A stretch of 64,000 nt of DNA from Acidimicrobiales bacterium (GCA_020628305.1 JAHDFH010000001.1:65306-129305), one strand, 5' to 3'. Shown: positions 12,383 to 22,990, counted from the first letter of the stretch. The notes: generated by a model not told the origin, from the sequence alone. Translations and numbers: made by a program.

Positions 12383-13234
12383 TTATTCGGCTTCTTCTGT
12401 CGAATGAGGTCCTGGGCAGGGGCGGTTCTCTGGATCATCTGATCCTTCACCGGTCGCTCCAGGAGTGAAATTGGGGTTGGCGCAGGCTAGAAGGAAGTCA
12501 AAATCGATCTCTGTTTCGGCTCCTGATTCAGCCGCTTCTCGTACGTGTTCTGCCCATTCAGCGTTAGCTTCGGTAGACATATCTTCGCCGCTGAGCGTAG
12601 CCCGTTCGTGGTATATGACCAATTCAAGCTCTTCTTGGGTCAGAGCGTTTAGCTGTGCAGGCATTTGACCAAGTGTTCCAGATACTCGGCGATTGCCATC
12701 TGTACGCTCAGCGCCATAAGCTTCTCCGTTGATTGCTCCTGAACCCCGAGCGACGTGGACCATCATGTCGATAGCTTCCGGAAAGGTTTGAAGCACCTCT
12801 CCATCTGAAAGCTGGTAGCCGGAACCGCCACCACCGTTAGCCCCGTGGCATCCGGCGCAACCTGCGGCAACATAAATTTCTGCTGATTCAACAACTAGCG
12901 GATCTTCTGTTTCAGGCTGTTGAAGAGTCCCAGCTAGGCCATATGCCCAGACAGGGGCTGCAAGCACAACGGGCATGGCCCAGAATGGTATTTTCTTGCG
13001 AGAAGTGTAAGCCTTTATGTATTCGGGCGTTGGTTTGCTTGGCTCTGGTTCTGGATCAAGATAGGGAAGGTCTGCAGTTGGCACAACTGCTGCAGCAGTA
13101 GCAGGAGTCGCTGCAGTAACTGCTGTTGAAGCAGCGGTATCGGCTGCAGGGGCGTCGGCTTCAGCTGGCTTGCCAGTGGCCTTGCTCTTTGCTGCTTTGC
13201 TTCTTTTCAGAAGATGTTCAGGTATTTCGCTCAA
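12383..13234 (-). CDS. membrane-anchored monoheme c-type cytochrome
   Basis: One CAGCH heme motif plus a distal GQMPA Met. TM anchor IPFWAMPVVLAAPVWAYGLAG. Start chosen at TTG 13234 (AAGAGG 6 nt upstream). The ORF is open to 13267. Confidence 0.8.
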   Translation of the reverse strand: MSEIPEHLLKRSKAAKSKATGKPAEADAPAADTAASTAVTAATPATAAAVVPTADLPYLDPEPEPSKPTPEYIKAYTSRKKIPFWAMPVVLAAPVWAYGLAGTLQQPETEDPLVVESAEIYVAAGCAGCHGANGGGGSGYQLSDGEVLQTFPEAIDMMVHVARGSGAINGEAYGAERTDGNRRVSGTLGQMPAQLNALTQEELELVIYHERATLSGEDMSTEANAEWAEHVREAAESGAETEIDFDFLLACANPNFTPGATGEGSDDPENRPCPGPHSTEEAE

Positions 13235-13350
13235 CGTCTGCCTCTTGTGTATAAACCTTCCGCCCAAGAGGCTACCGCGCTGGGCGATTCAATGCACAAC
13301 ATTCGCTTCTGAATCGCGGCATAAGGAACGGTGCAGATCCAGCTGACCAA

Positions 13351-14331
13351 CTATCTGGCAAAGCTTTCCGGTGGCCCGGTTGTCACCGTGAAGTTGTCGA
13401 ACCGGGCATAAGTGGTCTTGCTGGGGGCCCAATCTTGTGTACTGCCGCCATAGAAGGACGAGTAAAGGAATACATCTACGTTAAAGTCGCCACTGGTGCG
13501 CCACAGAATGTCTTTCTCAAGTAGTCGGTGCTCACCATCGACCCAAATTTCAACTTCCCCATTTGAGACGTTCTTGTCATTGATTTTGACCCGCTCAACG
13601 ATTCTGTACCATTGGCCGGCTTCGTAGCGACCGCTAATTGGGTAGCCAACGCCATAGATTGTTGGACGGTTGGGGTGGTAGGCATAAACCGTGAGTTCGC
13701 CATCTGGGCGCCACATGAGTCGGGCTGAGAAACCGTCAGTTCCATCAGCACCTTTGCCTCCCGTTGGGTGGGTGCCGCCAGCAAGCCCTGGAAGCTTTCC
13801 CCCTTTAACCCATTCCCAGCCTGGCTCAAAGAAGACGTCGTAGGTGAGATAGAGCTCGTCTGACCCGGGAAGGTTCTTGGTAGGGGCACTGACACGCGGC
13901 GAACCCTTTTCATAGGGGGTGTAAGCCTGTTTGAGGTATCCGTCTTCGATTGTTAGGGCTTCGTTTGCTGCAAGGTGGTCAAACTCGTAGCCGAAAAGTC
14001 TGGCAAAAAGGTCCTCTGTTACGGGGCCTGAAACAGTTTCGAAATCGACACTGAAGATGGTTTGAGAGCTGGGGGAGGTAGGTGGTTTCGGAGCGGTCGA
14101 GCTTGCTGTGGTTTCCTTACTCGTCGACGTAGTTGTTTCCTCAGGTAGGGGTTCTGTGGTTGTTGGCTGAAATAGTGTTGTGGCTGAACGAGTCTGGATT
14201 GCTGGCCGGATAGTTGAGCTGGCAGTTATTAGCTGTTCAGACGTCTCTTCGGTAGAGGTCGAGGCTGGGGTGCAACCGAAAGCACAGAGCAAAGCAATAC
14301 TGATTGCTAATTTGTAGAACCTTGGTTTCAT
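13351..14331 (-). CDS. secreted lipoprotein with a polysaccharide-lyase-14-like (concanavalin-fold) domain
   Basis: Lipobox LLCAFGC, a Thr/Ser/Pro linker, then GGKLPGLAGGTHPTGGKGADGTDGFSARLMWRPDGELTVYAYH and FYGGS...WAP, recalled as the PF14099 pattern. Confidence 0.45.
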   Translation of the reverse strand: MKPRFYKLAISIALLCAFGCTPASTSTEETSEQLITASSTIRPAIQTRSATTLFQPTTTEPLPEETTTSTSKETTASSTAPKPPTSPSSQTIFSVDFETVSGPVTEDLFARLFGYEFDHLAANEALTIEDGYLKQAYTPYEKGSPRVSAPTKNLPGSDELYLTYDVFFEPGWEWVKGGKLPGLAGGTHPTGGKGADGTDGFSARLMWRPDGELTVYAYHPNRPTIYGVGYPISGRYEAGQWYRIVERVKINDKNVSNGEVEIWVDGEHRLLEKDILWRTSGDFNVDVFLYSSFYGGSTQDWAPSKTTYARFDNFTVTTGPPESFAR

Positions 14332-14489
14332 ACGCCGCCCTTGCAATCAGTTTAGACGATCTGCGCCAATAGATCCATGAAGATGGTTCTATTGGCCCTG
14401 TGGTGCGGGGCAACTTCACATGGAGCAAGCTGAAGCAAAATACTTACGCGAAGATCGCTCACTTTCAATTCAGAACTAGTAGATTATTC

Positions 14490-14975
14490 ATGGCAGTATT
14501 CACTGAGTATTCTTTTGGGTCACCTGTGGTTGCATTTATCTCCTCGCTAATAATTTCATTTCTCATGACGGGTGCCATCTTTTGGTACGCCAAGCGACGC
14601 CCCGTAGGAACCCCGCTGACATGGGGCGAAGCGATGCTTGCATCGGCGTATGTTTTCTTCTTAGTTTTCGTTATCTATGGTGTCGTTCCTCATCAGTGGT
14701 TAACTTGGGCTGAGAACGAGCAAGGTTGGCGCCCCGACAGGCTCTTCTTCGGCTGGGGCGACATTGTGAAGCCCAAAAGTCAGGGCGGGTGGTTTCCCTT
14801 CGACATTACTTACCGGGCGATCTCAGACACGGTGGCCGTTGTAATATACGGCATTTTCTTAAGTGGTCAGATCTGGGTGTGGGCAAAATGGCAGAACCGT
14901 GGCGATGATTCCAAAGCTAAAGCTGCGTTGGTGAAGAAAAGCACTTACGGCAGACCTTTGGTAAAGCAGGGCTAA
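14490..14975 (+). CDS. hypothetical polytopic membrane protein, first gene of the Rieske/cyt b cluster
   Basis: 161 aa from ATG 14490 (track ORF opens at 14400). 3-4 TM helices. Stop lies 3 nt before the ferredoxin gene. Confidence 0.55.
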   Translation: MAVFTEYSFGSPVVAFISSLIISFLMTGAIFWYAKRRPVGTPLTWGEAMLASAYVFFLVFVIYGVVPHQWLTWAENEQGWRPDRLFFGWGDIVKPKSQGGWFPFDITYRAISDTVAVVIYGIFLSGQIWVWAKWQNRGDDSKAKAALVKKSTYGRPLVKQG

Positions 14976-14978
14976 GGC

Positions 14979-15395
14979 ATGGCCGTTACGGATGCTAACC
15001 CTCCACTGCCGGAATTTAGGGACGACTATCTCCTGGTTGAGGTAGATAAGGACTACCTATCTAAAGCGGTTAAGCCCAAGCAGTTCATTCATATCGATCA
15101 GTCGGAGTGTATTGCCTGTGAGGGTTGCGTGGATATTTGCCCTTGGAAGTGTATTCACATGCAGCCAGTTGACGTCATAGAGGAAAGCTACGGCGTTGCT
15201 AAACCAGGAGAAGACCCTGGTGATGCGTTTATATTCACTATTGACGATGATGTCTGCACGCGTTGTGCGCTCTGTGTCGATCGTTGTCCCACGGGCGTGA
15301 TTATTTTAGGAAAGATCGAAGAACCTAAGGGTGGGGGAGATTTGCATCAGAGAACTACCTCTTATGGTTACGGATACGGAATGCGGTTGACGTAA
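14979..15395 (+). CDS. 2x[4Fe-4S] ferredoxin-fold protein
   Basis: Two complete CxxCxxCxxxCP motifs: CIACEGCVDICP and CTRCALCVDRCP. No signal peptide or TM helix. Confidence 0.85.
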   Translation: MAVTDANPPLPEFRDDYLLVEVDKDYLSKAVKPKQFIHIDQSECIACEGCVDICPWKCIHMQPVDVIEESYGVAKPGEDPGDAFIFTIDDDVCTRCALCVDRCPTGVIILGKIEEPKGGGDLHQRTTSYGYGYGMRLT

Positions 15396-15437
15396 AAGCG
15401 TCACATTAGGAAACACACAAAGTAGGATTTGACTTAC

Positions 15438-16229
15438 ATGGCCAGTCCACAAGTTCAAAAAAAATCAATAGCGGAGAGAGTGAGCGACAGCGTAGGCTCT
15501 TTGAGTGATAACGTGCAAGGCTCTCAGGCCTGGAACTCTATTTTTCGTCCAGGCTCAGTCTTCCGCAAAGGCTACACAGACAGTCCTAGAAACCGTTCGT
15601 ATGTGATTATGAACTCTGTTTTGTATCACCTGCATCCGGTGAAGGTGAAAAGGCACGCTGTCAAAGTGAGCTACACGCTATGTCTTGGTGGGTTGAGTTT
15701 TTTCCTCTTCATCTTGTTGACTATCACCGGCATCTTCCTGATGTTCTTCTATACCCCGGATGCCGCTAGAGCTTACGACGACACCTACACAATTGTCTCT
15801 GAAACGTCTCTCGGTTTGATGTTGCGAAATATGCACCGCTGGGGAGCCCATTTAATGGTTATTTCAGTTTTCTTGCATATGGCTCGCGTTTTCTATCATG
15901 GAGCTTACAAAGCTCCTCGAGAGTTTAACTGGGTGATTGGTGTCATTCTCCTCACTTTGACTCTCTTGCTATCTTTCACCGGGTATCTGCTTCCGTGGGA
16001 TCAGCTTGCGCTTTGGGCAGTAACTGTGGGCACTAACATGATGGGCTTTACTCCAGTCATTGGTGACCAGGTTAAGTTCGTTCTTCTCGGCGGTTCGGTT
16101 ATTGGCACAGAGACGTTGCTGCGTTGGTATGTGCTGCACGTACTGTTTGTACCGTTCGTGACGGTAATTTTCATGGCAATTCACTTCTGGCGTGTACGTA
16201 AAGATGGCGGCATCTCAGGACCGCTATAG
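15438..16229 (+). CDS. cytochrome b, N-terminal four-helix (b6-like) subunit
   Basis: His pairs in RNMHRWGAHLM and YVLHV...AIHFWRV. Also FTGYLLPWDQLALWA. Ends after helix D, as in PetB. ATG 15438 is preferred over TTG 15429. Confidence 0.9.
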   Translation: MASPQVQKKSIAERVSDSVGSLSDNVQGSQAWNSIFRPGSVFRKGYTDSPRNRSYVIMNSVLYHLHPVKVKRHAVKVSYTLCLGGLSFFLFILLTITGIFLMFFYTPDAARAYDDTYTIVSETSLGLMLRNMHRWGAHLMVISVFLHMARVFYHGAYKAPREFNWVIGVILLTLTLLLSFTGYLLPWDQLALWAVTVGTNMMGFTPVIGDQVKFVLLGGSVIGTETLLRWYVLHVLFVPFVTVIFMAIHFWRVRKDGGISGPL

Positions 16230-16236
16230 GAGAACA

Positions 16237-16980
16237 ATGGCCGACATTCCAGATCATCTCAAACAGCGTGCCAAAGCCGCTAAAGAAAAAGCAGAAGCGG
16301 CCAAGTCTGATTCTGGCGGTTCTGCCTCTGCGTCTGGTATCCCAGAACATTTACTGAAGCGCTCAAAAGCAGCGAAGTCAAAAGGTGATTCTCCATCTTC
16401 TGATTCTGTAGTTGCCTCAGCTGGCACCGCTCCGGCTGCAGGTGGAGGCGACACCGGTGCTGCCGCAATCCAAACCGGACCCGGTGGCCATACCCAAAGA
16501 CTTCTTACAGTTGTCAAAGCAGGGTCAATTCAAGACATCAAGTCCAAACCACTAGATAAAGTCCACACCTGGCCGCATCTCATAGTGGTGGAATTTGGGG
16601 CAATGCTCGCAGTTACTGCGTTTCTGATCGTGTTCTCAATCTTCGTCAATGCTCCACTCCAACGTCTTGCTGATGTGAACGCTACGCCTAACCCTTCGAA
16701 AGCGCCGTGGTACTTTCTAGGACTTCAAGAGTTGCTCACGCTATTCCACCCTATGGTCGCTGGGGTAACCATTCCGGGAGTTGGACTTTTCGCTTTAATG
16801 CTTGCCCCATATATTGATAAAACAGTTAGCAACAAGCCTGAAGATCGTAAGTTCGCAATTTCCGTATTTACTTTCTTCATGATGTTCTGGGCAATTCTTT
16901 CAATAATCGGCTCTTTCTTTAGAGGCCCCGGTTTCAACTTTGTGTTCCCCTGGGAAGAAGGGATCTTCTTCGAACTCTAA
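16237..16980 (+). CDS. cytochrome b C-terminal part / subunit-IV-like protein with a long N-terminal tail
   Basis: ATG 16237 has AGGAG upstream. KAPWYFLGLQELL (variant of the PEWYF motif) and 3 TM helices. The N-terminal 110 aa are low-complexity and carry two IP(D/E)HL..R.KAAK motifs. Confidence 0.85.
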   Translation: MADIPDHLKQRAKAAKEKAEAAKSDSGGSASASGIPEHLLKRSKAAKSKGDSPSSDSVVASAGTAPAAGGGDTGAAAIQTGPGGHTQRLLTVVKAGSIQDIKSKPLDKVHTWPHLIVVEFGAMLAVTAFLIVFSIFVNAPLQRLADVNATPNPSKAPWYFLGLQELLTLFHPMVAGVTIPGVGLFALMLAPYIDKTVSNKPEDRKFAISVFTFFMMFWAILSIIGSFFRGPGFNFVFPWEEGIFFEL

Positions 16981-16993
16981 GAGGGTGTGAATT

Positions 16994-17842
16994 ATGGTAG
17001 TTTTTTATGCAGTAGGCGCAATAGTTCTTCTGGCTGTGGTTGCAGCTGTGGTTTTGTTTAGAAGGCAAGATCGCGAATTGGCCACCGGTTCTTTGACTGG
17101 AGTAGAGGCTGATCGAAAGAGAATAATTAGAGACAAAGGCGATCTCGAAGGTAAAGACTTTGAAACGCAGGCTCTCGAAAAACGCTCTCAAGAGCTAGCG
17201 CCAGCAGAGCCAGATGGGCCAGTTATCATCCCACCAATGGATCCCGACCAACTTGGTGAGGCAAGACGAGCCTTCCTCAACCGCAGCATCATTGGGGCTG
17301 CAAGCTTAGGGCTAGCGATGCTCGGTGGGGCTATTTTGAAAACCCTTTGGCCGAGTGCAAGTGGTGGATTCGGCGACAAAATTGTCGTTGGTAACGTTGA
17401 CTCGATCAAAGAATCAATTCGCGACAGTGGAGGCTTCTTCTACTTTCCGCTTGGCCGGATGTGGATTACCGAGTATCCGACTTCAGCTGTTGTTAAGGCA
17501 GAAACAAGTTATGGTTTCTACCCTCAGGTAGAGCAGGGGCTAAAGGCTGGAGTGGTTGCTCTATTCCAAACTTGCCCTCACCTGGGCTGCCGAGTTCCTG
17601 AATGTGAAACATCTCAGTGGTTCGAGTGTCCATGTCACGGTTCGCAATACAACAGAGTTGGAGAGAAAAAGGGTGGTCCTGCTCCTCGAGGCATGGATCG
17701 CTTTCCCATGGAAGTTTCCTCTGATGGAGTGCTTACGGTTGATACTGGAACAATCATTCAGGGTCCACCTATTGGCGTAAACACAACTGGTCAAGAAGCG
17801 GAAGGACCAAATTGTCTTTCTGATGGTGGAGGTGAGCACTGA
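16994..17842 (+). CDS. Rieske [2Fe-2S] subunit
   Basis: CPHLGCRV and CPCHGSQY boxes. N-terminal TM helix. Confidence 0.9.
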   Translation: MVVFYAVGAIVLLAVVAAVVLFRRQDRELATGSLTGVEADRKRIIRDKGDLEGKDFETQALEKRSQELAPAEPDGPVIIPPMDPDQLGEARRAFLNRSIIGAASLGLAMLGGAILKTLWPSASGGFGDKIVVGNVDSIKESIRDSGGFFYFPLGRMWITEYPTSAVVKAETSYGFYPQVEQGLKAGVVALFQTCPHLGCRVPECETSQWFECPCHGSQYNRVGEKKGGPAPRGMDRFPMEVSSDGVLTVDTGTIIQGPPIGVNTTGQEAEGPNCLSDGGGEH

Positions 17843-19509
17843 TGGAAGCGCTTTTACTCCAAACAAACTACAGATCAATCGGCATTGCCTTTGCCCTGAT
17901 AACTTTCATTGGCTTTGTTATCATCTTCTTCGCCAACAGTCGTAAAGCTCGTAAAGAAATCGGTAACGAGATTGAGCTTGCTGCCAACCGCAAAGAATAT
18001 TACGACGACGAGGATATGGAAGGCCTGCGCCTTGATCGTTCTTTGTCCTTCGCTTTAGTGTCGTTGTTGTTCATTGCTCTGTCATTTGGTTTCTACATGA
18101 TTGCCGAGCCAGGCCGCCAAGAAGGTGCGGTTCAAAACAAGATCGAGACTTTCCAAAGGCGCGGTGAGGACACCTACGTTAATGGAGCACAATGCGTCAA
18201 CTGTCACGCAGCTGATGGCTCTGGTGGTGGGGCAGCGTATGTGCTCCAAGACGCTGATGGTCAATTTATAGCAAACGCTAACTGGATGGCTCCTGCGTTG
18301 AATAACGTGTTGCTTCGCTACTCAGAAGAAGAGATCACTTACATCCTTAACTTTGGTCGGAATGGCTCGCCGATGGCCGCATGGGGCACGCCTGGTGGAG
18401 GGCCGTTAACCTCTCAAGCTGTACAGAACGTTATTGAGTATTTGAAAACCCTTCAAGTCCAAAGCATCGAACCAACCGACATTGCAGCTGCCGGCAATGA
18501 GAACCCCGATAACAGCGAAAACGATTTGGACGACGAAGAATCTCAAAAGGCTCAGGAAGAAGCCGACCGTCTAACAGCTTCGGTTAGGGCTGAGGTTGAT
18601 AGGTCGCTCGCCGATGGTGAGTTTGCGACGGTCGGGGAGGCCGTGTTTAACCTGGGACTGTACTCAGGGTTTGGAGCGGGATCCTATTCTTGTGCCCGCT
18701 GTCATACATCGGGCTGGTCGCTCGGAATTGATGCGTCCCCGAATGTTCTAGATGAAGGTGTGGCCGCCTGCGGTGGTGGGACGACCGGTATTGGGTTCAA
18801 CTTGTGTGGCGGTTCGATCGAAACTCGCTTCCCCAATGACACTTGGAAGATGCCTGACGGCTCTTGGATGCCGCCCGAAGGCTTAACTAATGACGATGGC
18901 GAATCGATAGTTCTTACAATGGATGGTACTGAAATTGTTCTTGATGAACGAGGCCGCCCAGTCGATGCAGATGGTAACCCGTATCTTGTCTTAACTGATG
19001 GTTTGATTGATGCCCGCTCTGCGGCCCCTGCGGTGGATGAACCAGCTGAAGAGGATGAAATCATCGATGATGAGACTACCGCTGCGGTTGCTGCAGAAGT
19101 CGAAACAGGATCAGCTTTGCTCGGATTGGCTGGGGATTTAGCACAGTGTGACTTTGTTTCAGAGCTGTATACGCCCGCTGACGGAGCAACATATCCAGTG
19201 GATCCAGATTCTGAACCTGTGGTCGGTGAAGACGGTGAGCTCTCTTCACCTGAAGCTTTGAATCCTGATGATTTTTCAGAGCCTGTTTACACTTTGGATT
19301 CTGGACGTCTGGCAAGCGGTTGTGAAATTATCGAGATGCCGGAAAGAACTAGCGACGCCCACTATGACTTCATCTACGATGGGGCTAACGCCGGGCAAGG
19401 CTACGGAAATGGCGGCATGTCGAGCGCTGGTATGATGCCTGGTTTTGGCAAAATGCTACCTCCTGAGTACATCCAAGCAGTAGTCGACTATGAGCGAGGT
19501 CTTGAGTAA
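17842..19509 (+). CDS. membrane-anchored diheme c-type cytochrome (555 aa)
   Basis: Heme motifs CVNCH and CARCH. N-terminal TM helices. Long acidic insertions. The start overlaps the Rieske stop (TGATG). Confidence 0.85.
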   Translation: MEALLLQTNYRSIGIAFALITFIGFVIIFFANSRKARKEIGNEIELAANRKEYYDDEDMEGLRLDRSLSFALVSLLFIALSFGFYMIAEPGRQEGAVQNKIETFQRRGEDTYVNGAQCVNCHAADGSGGGAAYVLQDADGQFIANANWMAPALNNVLLRYSEEEITYILNFGRNGSPMAAWGTPGGGPLTSQAVQNVIEYLKTLQVQSIEPTDIAAAGNENPDNSENDLDDEESQKAQEEADRLTASVRAEVDRSLADGEFATVGEAVFNLGLYSGFGAGSYSCARCHTSGWSLGIDASPNVLDEGVAACGGGTTGIGFNLCGGSIETRFPNDTWKMPDGSWMPPEGLTNDDGESIVLTMDGTEIVLDERGRPVDADGNPYLVLTDGLIDARSAAPAVDEPAEEDEIIDDETTAAVAAEVETGSALLGLAGDLAQCDFVSELYTPADGATYPVDPDSEPVVGEDGELSSPEALNPDDFSEPVYTLDSGRLASGCEIIEMPERTSDAHYDFIYDGANAGQGYGNGGMSSAGMMPGFGKMLPPEYIQAVVDYERGLE

Positions 19510-20408
19510 TGGGTAACACTTTCCTGGCCTTCATCGATGGAGTTGATTTTAATATCTTCTTCAGAGGGCTCTTGTCCACTTTGACGATGTTCGTTGTTCT
19601 GTGCGGTGCTACTTACATGATCATCGCTACCAACGTTGGCGTTCGTAAAGGCATGTTAGTAGCATCAGCTGGATTCTTTGGCTGGATGTTTCTGATGGGA
19701 ATAATATGGACCATTTATGGAGCGGGTTGGGTTGGAGCGACACCAACGTGGGAACTGGTTGAGATCAACCGAGGAGATTTAAGTGTCGCAGAGACTGAGG
19801 AATCTAACGCCCTTGCTGGAGTCGACCTCTCAGAGCTAGTAACGGAGCAAGACCCAGATCTTGCCCAGGCTCAGGCTTTAGAGATCTCTAGAACTCAAGA
19901 TCTATCTGGCTGGGATTTTCTGCCAGCCTCTAACTCCACTCGAGGCGAAGCCCAGTCATCAGTCGATGAATACCTTCTCGAAACAGGTGCCTACGGTTCA
20001 ACTGAGGAATACGTAGCGCTTCAGTTCGGGGCATTCACAACTGGCGGAAAGCCAAAACTGAAAGACGACCCAACTGCAGTTGATAGATTCGTGCATTTCT
20101 TCGACGAGACATTTGCTAATCCGCTTCATAAACAAGAGCTAATAATGATCCAGGTTCAGGGAGCCAAGGATGTGTTCTCTTTCACAGGTGGGACCCCTCC
20201 TGTGGCTGAGATTGACTCCAATAAGGATGTAGTCAGCGTCATCATGGAACGTAATCGTGGTGGCCCAATTCCATCACTAATTAGTGGCTTGAGATTTACG
20301 CCGTTCATGTTCACTGTGGTCAATGGATTGATCTTTCTGATCTGTTCATGGGCGTTGCACAAACGAGATAAGAGAGAAGCGTTGGCCTTGGCGGGAGCGG
20401 CTGCTTGA
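19509..20408 (+). CDS. hypothetical membrane protein linking the bc cluster to nuoA
   Basis: 299 aa with 2 N-terminal TM helices, 1 C-terminal TM helix and a soluble middle. TAATG overlap with the cytochrome c gene and TGATG overlap with nuoA. Confidence 0.6.
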   Translation: MGNTFLAFIDGVDFNIFFRGLLSTLTMFVVLCGATYMIIATNVGVRKGMLVASAGFFGWMFLMGIIWTIYGAGWVGATPTWELVEINRGDLSVAETEESNALAGVDLSELVTEQDPDLAQAQALEISRTQDLSGWDFLPASNSTRGEAQSSVDEYLLETGAYGSTEEYVALQFGAFTTGGKPKLKDDPTAVDRFVHFFDETFANPLHKQELIMIQVQGAKDVFSFTGGTPPVAEIDSNKDVVSVIMERNRGGPIPSLISGLRFTPFMFTVVNGLIFLICSWALHKRDKREALALAGAAA

Positions 20409-21464: not shown

Positions 21465-21543
21465 GGTAGGGGCGGTCCTATCCGGCTTTTGCTGTCATCC
21501 CTCGGCATCAAGCCTCAGGGAATGACTTGGTGGTCAGGTGTGG
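21465..21543 (+). repeat. bipartite intergenic repeat (module A + module B), copy 1
   Basis: GGTAGGGGCGGTCCTATCCGGCTTTT followed by GTCATCCCTCGGCATCAAGCCTCAGGGAATGACTTGGTGGTCAGGTGTGG. The B half is nearly identical to 38681-38734 and the A half to 39513-39539. Confidence 0.8.
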
Positions 21544-22352
21544 CGTACCCATCCTTCAGGGGAACCCAAATTAGGCATGGCAGTTTCGCCCTGAGCGTCA
21601 GGGGAAGACCGATAGCAGCGCACTCGGTTTACCTTCTCCTTGACACCTGAAAGCCAGAGAGATTCTTTGACTACTAAGCGGCGTTCAGCAATTTCCTCCT
21701 TCAAGCGCCCAGCAGCACCGTGTTCGAGGTTCCAGTTCTCCGTAGCATCTCCGAGTACCACCTCAGCTAGCCGCGTTATTTGAGCGTAACGTTCCATACA
21801 GACGGTGGCGATTTCGCTGAACAATACGTGATCTGTGGTTGTAAAGGCGATGTAGCACAGAAGCTCAGCAACTAGATCATCTAGCCTCAATTTGCTGGTG
21901 GTATCCAGCTCAGGTCGAAGAGCAACTTCCAGCTCGACTTTCGGGAAGGCCTCAGCTAGATCGACCAAAATAGTCACCCACCAAGTTGAGCCTTCGCTCG
22001 AAAAGGCATAGTTCTGGACGAGTGAGTCAAGATCAAGACCTCTTTTGAGGCGAGGGGAGAAGAGCGTGAAGCCTAGGCCCGAGGCTTGGAGAGAGTTGAG
22101 TGTTAGTTGTCTTGATTTATCGTCAAGGTTCAGAAGCGATACATTGTGTTTCAGCATTGCCCTGGATGTTCTTTCCAACCGTTCGAAACCCAGGAGGGCT
22201 AGGACGAGGTCCTCATACGGAATTCTGCCATGTCTGAGTAGCTTGAGGAATTCATCACGGTCGTCGTTAAAGAGCCTAAGATGGTCCTCAATTCCCCTCC
22301 ATGCAGCAATGGTGATTATCGGTTCCGCCATTAGTCGAAGTCTAGACAGCAA
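21534..22352 (-). CDS. hypothetical protein (272 aa), antisense to the nuo operon
   Basis: Intact ORF with no recognisable motif. The last approximately 10 nt of the ORF, including its stop codon, lie within repeat copy 21465-21543. Confidence 0.55.
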   Translation of the reverse strand: MLSRLRLMAEPIITIAAWRGIEDHLRLFNDDRDEFLKLLRHGRIPYEDLVLALLGFERLERTSRAMLKHNVSLLNLDDKSRQLTLNSLQASGLGFTLFSPRLKRGLDLDSLVQNYAFSSEGSTWWVTILVDLAEAFPKVELEVALRPELDTTSKLRLDDLVAELLCYIAFTTTDHVLFSEIATVCMERYAQITRLAEVVLGDATENWNLEHGAAGRLKEEIAERRLVVKESLWLSGVKEKVNRVRCYRSSPDAQGETAMPNLGSPEGWVRHT

Positions 22353-22450: not shown

Positions 22451-22990
22451 ATGAGCGATTCAATTCCAGAGGTTGAAGATGTCGAAATTGAGATCCATGG
22501 AAGCAATTCTGAGGTGCTATTTGGCTGCCCCGTAAGCTACTCGATGGGTCAGACTGTTATCCACCCAAGTAGGAGTCACTGGCTTCAGGTCGCTACTAAC
22601 TTGCTTAACGACGGCTATAACATGTGTGTCGATTTGACTGCCGTTGACTACTTATCCAATGACACTAGGGAACTGCCAGAAGGCATAGTTCTTGAACGGT
22701 TCGAGGTTGTAGCTTCGTTTGTATCCCATGAAAGAGCTGAGCGCCTTAGGGCTCGAGTGCAAATTTCTGGATCTGATCCGACTATCGATTCCCTCTACGA
22801 GATTTATCCAGGAACAGACTTTCTAGAACGAGAAGTTTATGACATGTTTGGCATCACTTTCGAAGGCCATCCTGATTTGTCCCGAATCTTGATGCCAGAA
22901 GAGTGGCAGGGGCATCCACTGCGCAAAGACTTTGATGTTGGGGCTATCCCAGTGCAGTTTAAGTATCCACAGGGTGAGAAATATGATTGA
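22451..22990 (+). CDS. nuoC: NADH-quinone oxidoreductase subunit C
   Basis: EREVYDMFGITFEGHPDLSRILMPEEWQGHPLRKDF. Confidence 0.9.
   Translation: MSDSIPEVEDVEIEIHGSNSEVLFGCPVSYSMGQTVIHPSRSHWLQVATNLLNDGYNMCVDLTAVDYLSNDTRELPEGIVLERFEVVASFVSHERAERLRARVQISGSDPTIDSLYEIYPGTDFLEREVYDMFGITFEGHPDLSRILMPEEWQGHPLRKDFDVGAIPVQFKYPQGEKYD

What the first reader, a model, noticed from the sequence alone, without database searches (positions are those of the whole stretch)
13181..16383. Identical 15-aa peptide IPEHLLKRSKAAKSK at the N-termini of two different respiratory proteins, encoded with different codons
What the sequence shows:
- The monoheme cytochrome c (12383-13234, minus strand) begins (M)SEIPEHLLKRSKAAKSK (nt 13181-13228).
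- The subunit-IV-like protein begins MADIPDHLKQRAKAAKEK (16243-16290) and then repeats GIPEHLLKRSKAAKSK (16336-16383).
- The two identical 15-aa stretches differ at 9 or more synonymous codon positions: ata/atc, cct/cca, ctt/tta, aaa/aag, aga/cgc, agc/tca, gca/gcg, agc/tca, aag/aaa.
- In both proteins the motif sits at the extreme N-terminus. It is followed by 50-70 aa of Ala/Ser/Thr/Pro low-complexity linker and then the first TM helix.

Inference:
- The codon differences argue for conservation at the peptide level rather than a recent DNA duplication.
- The position implies a cytoplasmic tethered peptide.
- It may be a short linear docking motif that targets or connects respiratory components to a shared cytoplasmic partner. 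I do not recognise it as a named motif.
Basis: seen in the sequence. Interest (0 to 1): 0.6.

Follow-up and report, generated by a model that had tools for sequence, protein, structure and literature searches.

The report
Shared tethered peptide on respiratory proteins
Two respiratory membrane proteins of an Acidimicrobiia bacterium carry the same short helix-forming peptide on flexible cytoplasmic tails; across the class the peptide is also found on a subunit of an unusual complex I and on a few phage proteins, so it looks like an undescribed docking tag whose binding partner is still unknown.

Summary
IPEHLLKRSKAAKSK occurs at 13181-13225(-) in a membrane-anchored monoheme cytochrome c. It occurs again at 16339-16383(+) in the subunit-IV protein of a b6-type Rieske/cytochrome b complex, which has a second, diverged copy at 16246-16290. 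The two identical peptides share 30/45 bases, as expected for independent codon choice.

The motif is not low-complexity noise. The core I-P-x-H-L-x-x-R-[SA]-x-x-A-[KR] is present in 120/120 subunit-IV homologs (two copies each) and in 118/120 cytochrome c homologs. Synonymous sites are scrambled and the surrounding linkers are variable. Carriers are almost all class Acidimicrobiia.

The motif also heads NuoC in a clade of complex I operons that lack nuoEFG. It is repeated up to seven times on a relative of an ORF that flanks the bc operon (19509-20408). It starts small proteins on two phage contigs.

AlphaFold2 models it as a helix followed by a disordered linker. No Pfam, NCBIfam, PDB or full-text literature match covers it.

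Best reading: a cytoplasmic helical docking motif shared by respiratory components. The receptor is unknown. The operon's acidic 2x[4Fe-4S] ferredoxin is a candidate only, and I could not test it. Interest is moderate to high.

The parts
13181..13225 (-). Motif copy in the monoheme cytochrome c (IPEHLLKRSKAAKSK, residues 4-18)
   Evidence: 118/120 homologs carry [TS]EIPEHLLKRS[KR]xAK. AlphaFold2 models a helix at residues 6-20.
12383..13234 (-). Membrane-anchored monoheme cytochrome c, 283 aa. Layout: N-terminal motif, disordered linker, one TM helix (residues 84-99), periplasmic c-type domain (CAGCH).
   Evidence: PF00034 28.6 bits against a cut-off of 21.3. AlphaFold2: pLDDT > 90 for the haem domain and < 50 for residues 21-59. 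The gene lies divergent from the bc operon in at least 16 other genomes.
13241..13246 (-). Shine-Dalgarno-like AAGAGG, 6 nt upstream of the TTG start at 13234
   Evidence: Read from the sequence. Supports 13234 over the in-frame TTG at 13267.
13058..13174 (-). Ala/Pro/Thr-rich disordered linker of the cytochrome c (residues 21-59)
   Evidence: pLDDT < 50. Sequence and length vary among homologs.
16237..16980 (+). Subunit-IV-like protein (PetD family) of a split b6-type cytochrome b, 247 aa. It has a ~110-residue cytoplasmic N-terminal extension and three TM helices.
   Evidence: PF00032 28.3 bits against a cut-off of 20.7. AlphaFold2 models helices at 112-147, 163-193 and 201-229.
16246..16290 (+). 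Motif copy 1 (IPDHLKQRAKAAKEK, residues 4-18); family consensus IPEHLRKRAxEARKKAE
   Evidence: Helix at residues 6-24, pLDDT about 80.
16339..16383 (+). Motif copy 2 (IPEHLLKRSKAAKSK, residues 35-49); family consensus IP[AE]HLL[QE]RSKSAK
   Evidence: Helix at residues 37-49, pLDDT about 60.
16387..16542 (+). Low-confidence (pLDDT < 50) segment between copy 2 and the first TM helix (residues 51-102). Residues ~51-80 are a variable Ser/Ala/Gly/Pro-rich linker; residues 81-102 belong to the conserved GPGGHTQRLLTVVK... block.
   Evidence: pLDDT < 50 for residues 51-102. Column identity is at most 40% with many gaps in the variable part, against at least 90% in the motif columns and in the conserved block from residue 81.
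14979..15395 (+). Context and candidate receptor (not shown to bind): 138-aa 2x[4Fe-4S] ferredoxin-like subunit, net charge -11, first gene of the conserved Fd-cyt b-subunit IV-Rieske core
   Evidence: Pfam Fer4 families. Present in essentially all Acidimicrobiia loci scanned. Charge.
15429..16229 (+). Context: b6-type cytochrome b (4-helix half) with LCLGG, the Cys that binds haem cn in b6-type complexes
   Evidence: PF00033 158 bits. Sequence. The role of this Cys comes from established knowledge of b6f and Firmicute b6c complexes.
16994..19509 (+). Context: Rieske protein (16994-17842) and 555-aa dihaem cytochrome c (17842-19509)
   Evidence: Pfam hits. Two CxxCH motifs in the translation.
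19509..20408 (+). Context: 299-aa membrane protein ending the operon. It has no motif here. Relatives in other lineages (P0243, P0351) carry 7 and 3 motif units on an added cytoplasmic N-terminus.
   Evidence: BLASTP E = 3e-8 and 8e-8 over one TM segment of about 53-55 residues only. Sequences.

Best explanation
The peptide is a lineage-specific short linear docking motif of class Acidimicrobiia. Its core is I-P-x-H-L-x-x-R-[SA]-x-x-A-[KR].

It folds into a basic alpha-helix that starts just after the proline. One face carries the conserved Ile, Leu and Ala residues, flanked by His, Arg and Lys. The helix sits on long disordered cytoplasmic tethers.

It is displayed by several components of the respiratory chain:
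- twice on subunit IV of the b6-type Rieske/cytochrome b complex;
- once on the divergently encoded membrane-anchored monohaem cytochrome c;
- in some clades on NuoC of a complex I paralogue that lacks NuoEFG;
- in other clades, up to seven times on a relative of an ORF flanking the bc operon (19509-20408).

The inferred function is to dock these proteins onto one common cytoplasmic, or cytoplasm-facing, receptor. That would hold the components, or a shared redox partner, together. A few phage proteins copy the tag to reach the same receptor.

Shown: the motif, its peptide-level conservation, the helix-plus-tether anatomy, cytoplasmic placement and modular distribution.
Inferred: binding as such, and the identity of the receptor.
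For: Conservation
- 120/120 subunit IV homologs (63-82% identity) carry both copies.
- 118/120 cytochrome c homologs (54-72% identity) carry one copy at the N-terminus.
- Motif columns are at least 90% identical; the adjacent linker columns are at most 40% identical and gappy.

Peptide-level selection
- 51-55% of the motif codons that encode the same residue differ synonymously between genomes.
- Within the window, base identity is at the level expected for independent codon choice.

Anatomy
- AlphaFold2 models a helix (subunit IV 6-24 and 37-49; cytochrome c 6-20) followed by pLDDT < 50 linkers and then TM helices.

Modularity
- 61 of the best 120 NuoC homologs, in a marine Acidimicrobiia clade, start M[AT]E[IV]PEHLLK[RK]A.
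- In all three contexts examined, the motif-bearing nuoC lies in a nuoABCDHIJ... operon lacking nuoEFG (seen through nuoN on L139 and L140; the L033 view ends at nuoJ).
- P0243 and P0351 carry 7 and 3 units upstream of an extra TM helix. That helix would place the units in the cytoplasm.
- P0283 is a separate 748-aa membrane protein with two copies.
- Phage contigs L003 and L004 encode small proteins that start with the motif. Their neighbours are an HNH endonuclease, a kinase and a terminase.

Specificity
- A profile search of 1.84 billion representatives gave only 241 hits at E <= 1e-3.
- In the genome scan, about 104 of 120 tiles are true hits, nearly all titled Acidimicrobiia or unclassified Actinomycetota. 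Of these, 103 are the bc locus.

Co-variation
- R8->K occurs in both the cytochrome c and subunit IV copy 1 on the same contig.
Against: - No receptor has been identified and no binding has been shown.
- The only readout available from the structure tool was per-residue confidence of single chains. It cannot show docking.
- Some apparent extra carriers are assembly chimeras. For example, the TIR fusion P0292 follows a cytochrome b6 C-terminus on a 1.2-kb contig with 2x coverage.
- The His is replaced by Y, E, K, D or Q in divergent copies, so the recognition code is looser than the core suggests.
- The R8->K co-variation is probably a single evolutionary event.
- A basic Ala-rich helix could act without a protein receptor, for example on lipid head groups or nucleic acid.
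Confidence: 0.55

Rival explanations
1. Ferredoxin-capturing antenna (a specific sub-case of docking). The basic helix binds an acidic ferredoxin: either the 2x[4Fe-4S] subunit encoded at the head of the bc operon or a soluble relative. It would hold that ferredoxin next to the n-side haem cn of the b6-type complex and next to NuoI of the complex I that lacks NuoEFG. Both enzymes would then share the same electron-input protein.
For: - The motif-bearing NuoC is found only in operons lacking the NADH-oxidising NuoEFG module. Enzymes of this kind need another electron donor (PMC11238625 and PMC3144371 describe 11-subunit enzymes lacking the N-module).
- The cytochrome b has the haem cn cysteine. 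Ferredoxin has been proposed as a donor to haem cn in b6f (PMC5600118).
- A ferredoxin gene always precedes cytochrome b.
- The ferredoxin is the only strongly acidic cytoplasmic product of the operon, at net -11 against +3/+4 for the motif.
Against: - There is no direct test.
- It does not explain why a cytochrome c with a periplasmic haem domain carries the tag.
- It does not explain the carriers of unknown function.
- Co-occurrence of the ferredoxin and the motif was examined only in loci that were selected by the motif.
Confidence: 0.2
2. Membrane-surface or anionic-lipid binding helix. The basic helix lies on the cytoplasmic leaflet, for example on cardiolipin-rich patches. It would concentrate its carriers in the same membrane domain without any protein receptor.
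For: - Net charge is +3 to +4 and the hydrophobic moment is moderate (0.27-0.38).
- Most carriers are membrane proteins.
- Several copies in one protein would add avidity.
Against: - Mean hydrophobicity is about 0 (-0.13 to 0.12). There are no aromatic residues and no large hydrophobic face.
- Position-specific conservation of Pro, His, Arg and Ala over hundreds of sequences is more than charge-driven lipid binding needs.
- NuoC already belongs to a membrane complex.
Confidence: 0.12
3. Assembly or quality-control tag. The helix is recognised by a chaperone, insertase or protease (for example of the FtsH type) that controls biogenesis or turnover of respiratory subunits. Phage proteins would use it for regulated stability.
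For: - It sits at the extreme N-terminus in most carriers, followed by an unstructured tail.
- Carriers are subunits of multi-subunit complexes.
- Small phage proteins carry it.
Against: - Conserved internal copies (subunit IV copy 2), C-terminal copies (P0294, P0354) and arrays of up to 7 (P0243) are hard to explain as a degron or targeting signal.
- Most other subunits of the same complexes lack it.
Confidence: 0.08
4. Not a functional unit. The identity would be a recent duplication or gene conversion, a low-complexity coincidence, or an untranslated stretch upstream of the true start.
For: - The exact 15/15 identity is peculiar to this clade.
- The surrounding sequence is compositionally biased.
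Against: - Base identity is at the level expected for independent codon choice.
- The motif is conserved family-wide with scrambled synonymous sites.
- Zero matches are expected by chance in the window.
- Ribosome-binding sites and homolog N-termini fix the starts upstream of the motif.
Confidence: 0.02

Closest known systems
Bacterial short linear docking motifs on disordered tails (SSB C-terminal tip, beta-clamp-binding motif, FtsZ C-terminal peptide)
   Same: - A conserved peptide of 10-20 residues forms an island on a variable, disordered tether.
- It is appended modularly to unrelated proteins.
- Such motifs are copied by phages.
- Presumed role: recruiting several clients to one hub.
   Different: - Those motifs have known receptors and act in DNA replication or cell division.
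- Here the clients are respiratory-chain proteins and the receptor is unknown.
- The motif is mostly N-terminal and is repeated within one protein.
- The resemblance is recalled from general knowledge. It was not tested as family membership.
N-terminus of PetD (subunit IV) in cyanobacterial and chloroplast cytochrome b6f
   Same: - Same protein family (PF00032).
- Same n-side location of the N-terminus.
- In Chlamydomonas the PetD N-terminus is a functional interaction and regulation site for the STT7 kinase (PMC13287000, title and abstract).
   Different: - The Acidimicrobiia extension is about 110 residues longer.
- It has two helical motif copies.
- Its motif is shared with a cytochrome c and with NuoC.
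- No sequence similarity to the PetD N-terminus was established.
Ferredoxin-docking elements of 11-subunit complex I-like enzymes (photosynthetic NDH-1)
   Same: - Both enzymes lack NuoEFG.
- Both would need to capture an acidic electron donor. In NDH-1, extra basic subunits near NdhI do this (from memory of the NDH-1 structures). Background on N-module-less enzymes is in PMC3144371 and PMC11238625.
   Different: - In NDH-1 the docking elements are separate folded subunits (NdhS, NdhV, NdhO).
- Here it would be a tethered helix fused to NuoC, and also present on the bc complex.
- Ferredoxin binding is a hypothesis only.
Encapsulation peptides of bacterial microcompartments
   Same: A terminal helix of about 18 residues is joined to the cargo by a poorly conserved linker, and unrelated enzymes share it.
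   Different: - The carriers here are integral membrane proteins and a complex I subunit, not lumen enzymes.

Membership tests
Cytochrome b6f subunit IV / PetD family (host protein 16237-16980) | Match to PF00032 above the gathering score; three TM helices; gene directly follows a 4-helix b6-type cytochrome b | tested here: met
   28.3 bits against a cut-off of 20.7. AlphaFold2 models three TM helices. The gene follows cytochrome b (PF00033, 158 bits).
Class I c-type cytochrome (host protein 12383-13234) | CxxCH haem-binding motif and a match to PF00034 above the gathering score | tested here: met
   CAGCH in the translation. 28.6 bits against a cut-off of 21.3. Domain pLDDT > 90.
Short linear docking motif (SLiM) | Short conserved island inside an otherwise variable, disordered region | tested here: met
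   Motif columns at least 90% identical; linker columns at most 40% identical and gappy. Linker pLDDT < 50.
Short linear docking motif (SLiM) | Modular occurrence on unrelated protein families | tested here: met
   Found on subunit IV, cytochrome c, NuoC, relatives of the ORF 19509-20408 product, P0283 and small phage proteins.
Short linear docking motif (SLiM) | A defined receptor domain that binds the peptide | not testable with these tools
No interaction data exist.
Twin-arginine (Tat) or Sec signal peptide | N-terminal basic region ([ST]-R-R-x-F-L-K for Tat) followed directly by a hydrophobic h-region and a cleavage site | tested here: not met
   There is no RR-x-FLK. The motif is followed by about 60 polar or disordered residues. 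Internal and C-terminal copies exist.
Membrane-targeting amphipathic helix (MinD/FtsA type) | Terminal helix with a large hydrophobic face (Phe, Leu, Ile, Trp) and positive mean hydrophobicity | tested here: inconclusive
The ranges overlap at the MinD end. Position-specific conservation exceeds what lipid binding needs. Lipid binding itself was not tested.
Any curated protein family or domain covering the motif | A Pfam, NCBIfam or PHROG model, or a PDB chain, that matches the motif region | tested here: not met
   No model covers the N-terminal regions. The PDB profile search gave only one chance 8-residue match at E = 1.7. Full-text search for IPEHLL, IPAHLL, IPEHLRKR and PEHLLKRS found 0 papers.
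Recent intragenomic duplication or gene conversion | DNA identity between the copies above that expected for independent codon choice | tested here: not met
   30/45 bases observed against 32.9 +/- 2.5 expected; 6/15 codons against 5.2 +/- 1.8.

The most novel reading that the evidence does not exclude
The motif is a ferredoxin-capturing, or more generally a redox-partner-capturing, antenna. It would be shared by a b6-type bc complex, its satellite cytochrome c and a complex I that lacks NuoEFG. Acidimicrobiia would then wire two proton-pumping quinone enzymes to the same tethered cytoplasmic electron carrier, and their phages would tap into it. Finding the receptor would also name the long-sought electron donor of an 11-subunit complex I in an aerobic actinobacterial lineage.
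Probability: 0.2. Interest if true: 0.85.

Novelty: new variant of a known kind. Interest (0 to 1): 0.6.

Why it matters
Bacterial respiratory chains are usually thought to be organised by contacts inside the membrane. Here, different respiratory enzymes of an abundant marine, freshwater and soil class display the same cytoplasmic peptide tag. The carriers are a bc complex, a cytochrome c and a complex I without its NADH module. That points to an unrecognised organising or electron-input partner.

The tag is short and sharply defined, so it gives a direct experimental handle. A peptide pull-down or a multimer-prediction screen could reveal that partner. The same experiment might identify what feeds electrons into 11-subunit complex I enzymes. 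Phage proteins carrying the same tag suggest that the hub is worth hijacking.

Tried and rejected
1. AlphaFold2 on a fusion of the subunit IV tail and the ferredoxin, with a paired 24-row alignment (A3). The ferredoxin hypothesis therefore remains untested.
2. Look-up of the exact window cytochrome c (P0121) to identify the organism. Nothing was on record.
3. Per-genome census from the genome scan. For example, the 3.6-Mb contig of L028 shows its cytochrome c tile but not its subunit IV tile. I make no claim about the number of carriers per genome.
4. The TIR-domain carrier P0292 is rejected as a probable assembly chimera. It follows a cytochrome b6 C-terminus on a 1.2-kb contig at 2x coverage. 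Many other hits are truncated or frame-shifted subunit IV ORFs, and some end in adapter-like sequence.
5. Two further viral scans added no convincing carriers. L136 and L138 are chance-like.
6. Haem or metal ligation by the conserved His is rejected as the general function. The His is replaced by Y, E, K, D or Q in divergent copies.
7. An mRNA-level or translation-initiation feature is rejected. The codons are scrambled, and internal and C-terminal copies are conserved.
8. Cluster look-up for taxonomy of the odd carriers gave almost no names. The contexts of P0242, P0264 and P0250 were uninformative.
9. Literature searches on Acidimicrobiia bc complexes and on nuoEFG-less enzymes found only background and nothing on the motif.

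Full report
**Observation**

The window has 49% G+C. At 14400-20408 it carries an operon for a b6-type Rieske/cytochrome b complex:
- a 191-aa membrane protein;
- a 138-aa 2x[4Fe-4S] ferredoxin;
- a 4-helix cytochrome b with the LCLGG haem-cn cysteine;
- a subunit-IV-like protein (PF00032);
- a Rieske protein;
- a 555-aa dihaem cytochrome c;
- a 299-aa membrane protein.

nuoA-nuoH follow from 20405. A membrane-anchored monohaem cytochrome c gene lies upstream on the other strand, at 12383-13234.

- 13181-13225(-);
- 16246-16290(+);
- 16339-16383(+).

They are the only copies in the 64 kb. No shuffle of the window produced a match.

The two identical 15-residue stretches share 6 of 15 codons and 30 of 45 bases. 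Drawing codons independently from this window's own usage predicts 5.2 +/- 1.8 codons and 32.9 +/- 2.5 bases. So there is no trace of a recent DNA copy or of gene conversion.

Both starts are credible. Each has a ribosome-binding site at the right distance. Homologs almost always begin M-[TS]-E-I-P-E-H.

**Conservation**

All 120 best subunit IV homologs (63-82% identity) carry both copies:
- copy 1 at residue 4 (IPEHLRKRAxEARKKAE);
- copy 2 some 30-60 residues later (IP[AE]HLL[QE]RSKSAK).

Among the cytochrome c homologs (54-72% identity), 118 of 120 carry [TS]EIPEHLLKRS[KR]xAK, nearly always at the N-terminus. The other two have IPEYLLKKS.

The shared core is I-P-x-H-L-x-x-R-[SA]-x-x-A-[KR].

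Motif columns are at least 90% identical. The adjacent linker columns are at most 40% identical and full of gaps.

I collected the DNA of 76 subunit IV loci and 22 cytochrome c loci. In these, 51-55% of the motif codons that encode the same residue differ synonymously. Selection therefore acts on the peptide.

In 14 other genomes that hold both genes, the cytochrome c motif and subunit IV copy 2 differ at several of the 15 positions, typically 3-5. The perfect identity seen here is a feature of this clade.

**Anatomy**

AlphaFold2 with family alignments gives the following.
- Subunit IV: helices at 6-24 (pLDDT about 80) and 37-49 (about 60), low-confidence (pLDDT < 50) stretch 51-102, and TM helices at 112-147, 163-193 and 201-229.
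- Cytochrome c: helix at 6-20, disordered stretch 21-59, TM helix at 84-99, and a confident haem domain.

In helical register the conserved residues 1, 5, 8, 9, 12 and 16 fall on one face.

The motif is basic (+3 to +4) and polar, with mean hydrophobicity about 0 and hydrophobic moment 0.27-0.38.

Three arguments place the motif in the cytoplasm:
- basic residues precede the cytochrome c TM helix;
- the subunit IV N-terminus is on the n side in b6f complexes (established knowledge);
- the motif also occurs on NuoC, a cytoplasmic peripheral-arm subunit.

**Distribution**

I built a 19-column profile of the motif and searched 1.84 billion representative proteins. It gave 241 hits at E <= 1e-3. 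Most are subunit IV or cytochrome c proteins or fragments of them.

Several odd fusions are artefacts. The TIR fusion P0292 directly follows a cytochrome b6 C-terminus on a 1.2-kb contig at 2x coverage.

Genuine additional carriers exist.
- P0283 is a 748-aa multi-TM protein with two copies, encoded by its own gene on a 49% G+C contig.
- P0243 and P0351 carry 7 and 3 copies of a longer unit of about 30 residues, IPEHLLRRSAEAKAKATGxxVEEILAEL. The units precede an extra TM helix and a membrane domain with a short (53-55 residue) TM-segment similarity to window ORF 19509-20408 (BLASTP E = 3e-8 and 8e-8).
- On L010, P0243 follows a protein that by eye resembles window ORF 14400-14975 (not aligned).
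- P0294 has four C-terminal copies and lies next to fur.
- P0389 sits among RhuM, OLD-nuclease and Fic genes.

A degenerate DNA pattern for EIPEHL..R...A was scanned over one genome per species.
- About 16 are chance matches in other phyla.
- About 104 are real, and nearly all are titled Acidimicrobiia or unclassified Actinomycetota. Named taxa include Ilumatobacteraceae, Microthrixaceae, Iamia, Aquihabitans, Aldehydirespiratoraceae and Spongiisociaceae.
- A few of the real ones are MAGs labelled Bifidobacterium or Acidobacteria. These are probably mislabelled.
- Of the real ones, 103 are the bc locus. The order Fd-cyt b-subunit IV-Rieske is conserved, and the cytochrome c is divergent upstream in at least 16.
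- The remaining one, L033, is NuoC.

**NuoC**

Of the best 120 homologs of the L033 NuoC, 61 (47-83% identity) begin M[AT]E[IV]PEHLLK[RK]A.AAR. Many come from Tara and other marine MAGs. The remaining 59, apart from one N-terminally truncated fragment, are more distant and lack the motif.

In all three contexts examined, the tagged nuoC lies in a nuoABCDHIJ... operon without nuoEFG (seen through nuoN on L139 and L140; the L033 view ends at nuoJ). In two of them this operon sits immediately downstream of a conventional nuo operon (its nuoG-N on L139; only its distal genes on L140).

The window's own nuoC (22451-22990) belongs to an operon that has nuoEFG, and it has no tag.

**Phages**

A scan of IMG/VR found two convincing N-terminal copies.
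- L003 9878-10201 encodes a 107-aa protein on a 231-kb contig with 37% G+C. Its neighbours are a PHROG HNH endonuclease and a kinase.
- L004 encodes a protein of about 89 aa near a terminase large subunit.

Two further viral scans added nothing convincing.

**What it is not**

- No Pfam, NCBIfam or PHROG model covers the motif, and no PDB chain matches it.
- No paper in the library contains the strings IPEHLL, IPAHLL, IPEHLRKR or PEHLLKRS.
- It is not a Tat or Sec signal. No h-region follows, and internal and C-terminal copies exist.
- It is not an mRNA feature. The codons are scrambled.
- It is not an obligatory metal or haem ligand. The His is replaced by Y, E, K, D or Q in divergent copies.
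- It is a poor candidate for a membrane-inserting helix.

**Interpretation**

The pattern is a short conserved helix on long disordered cytoplasmic tethers. It is often multivalent. It moves between different subunits of the same respiratory machinery in different lineages, and phages copy it. This is the signature of a docking motif for a common receptor. I commit to that reading at about 0.55.

The steps that are shown are conservation, anatomy, placement and distribution. The binding itself is inferred.

One co-variation fits a shared receptor but is a single event. R8->K occurs in both the cytochrome c and subunit IV copy 1 on contig L141, and it recurs in a NuoC sub-clade.

**Candidate receptor**

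The most interesting specific candidate is a ferredoxin. Four observations point that way.
- The operon always begins with an acidic (net -11) 2x[4Fe-4S] protein that has no membrane anchor.
- The cytochrome b is of the haem-cn type, for which ferredoxin input has been proposed (PMC5600118).
- The only NuoC proteins that carry the tag belong to enzymes lacking the NADH-oxidising module. Such enzymes need another electron donor (PMC3144371, PMC11238625).
- The motif and the ferredoxin have opposite charge.

I could not test this. The idea also does not explain the tag on a cytochrome c whose haem is periplasmic. I give it about 0.2.

Lipid-surface binding (about 0.12) and an assembly or turnover tag (about 0.08) remain possible. 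Artefact explanations are excluded.

**Verdict**

The motif appears to be undescribed. Its link to a nuoEFG-less complex I and to phage proteins raises its interest. The receptor is the missing piece, and standard experiments could find it.

Noticed in passing
window 14979-16229: The bc operon encodes an acidic 138-aa 2x[4Fe-4S] ferredoxin directly upstream of a b6-type cytochrome b that has the haem-cn cysteine (LCLGG). The Fd-cyt b-subunit IV-Rieske order is conserved in essentially all Acidimicrobiia loci scanned. A ferredoxin subunit on a b6-type complex is unusual in itself.
   Followed up: partly
L033 2920-3684; L139 10001-10759; L140 10001-10747: Many marine Acidimicrobiia have a second, 11-gene nuoABCDHIJKLMN operon without nuoEFG. 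On L139 and L140 it lies right after a conventional nuo operon and ends with a Methyltransf_28 (NDUFAF7-like) gene. Only this paralogue's NuoC carries the motif.
   Followed up: partly
window 13351-14346 (-): A PL14 polysaccharide lyase gene with a lipoprotein-like N-terminus sits between the cytochrome c gene and the bc operon. In other genomes the two motif sites are 2.0-2.4 kb apart, against 3.06 kb here. This looks like an insertion specific to this lineage.
   Followed up: no
window 14400-14975 and 19509-20408; L010: Two membrane proteins of unknown function flank the bc operon; neither has a Pfam match above threshold or any NCBIfam match. On L010 a relative of the 299-aa protein (P0243), there carrying seven motif units, follows a protein that by eye resembles the 191-aa one and lies away from any bc genes. 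They may form a pair.
   Followed up: partly
P0243, P0351, L044, L064, L078: In some high-G+C lineages the motif is the first helix of a longer unit of about 30 residues, IPEHLLRRSAEAKAKA[LT]G[IV]xVEE[AI]LAEL. This is helix, G-hydrophobic-x turn, helix, somewhat like a helix-hairpin-helix. The window's version keeps only the first helix.
   Followed up: no
window 21534-22352 (-): An opposite-strand 272-aa ORF with no Pfam match interrupts the nuo operon between nuoB and nuoC.
   Followed up: no
L134 (context of P0389); L132 (context of P0294): Two carriers of unknown function sit in suggestive neighbourhoods. P0389 lies among RhuM, an OLD-family nuclease, DUF2130 and Fic genes, which suggests a mobile or defence island. 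P0294, with four C-terminal copies, lies directly downstream of fur and next to a ZIP transporter.
   Followed up: no
hits (e.g. P0292, P0266, P0350, P0375): Many metagenome proteins carrying the motif are chimeric or frame-shifted ORFs. Some end in what looks like adapter-derived sequence (LLYTSPSPRD, LSLIHI). Architectures taken from such databases need a check of their genomic context.
   Followed up: yes
L047, L072, L090, L040, L076: MAG records titled Bifidobacterium or Acidobacteria carry the typical Acidimicrobiia bc operon with the motif. These are probably binning or labelling errors in the public records.
   Followed up: no
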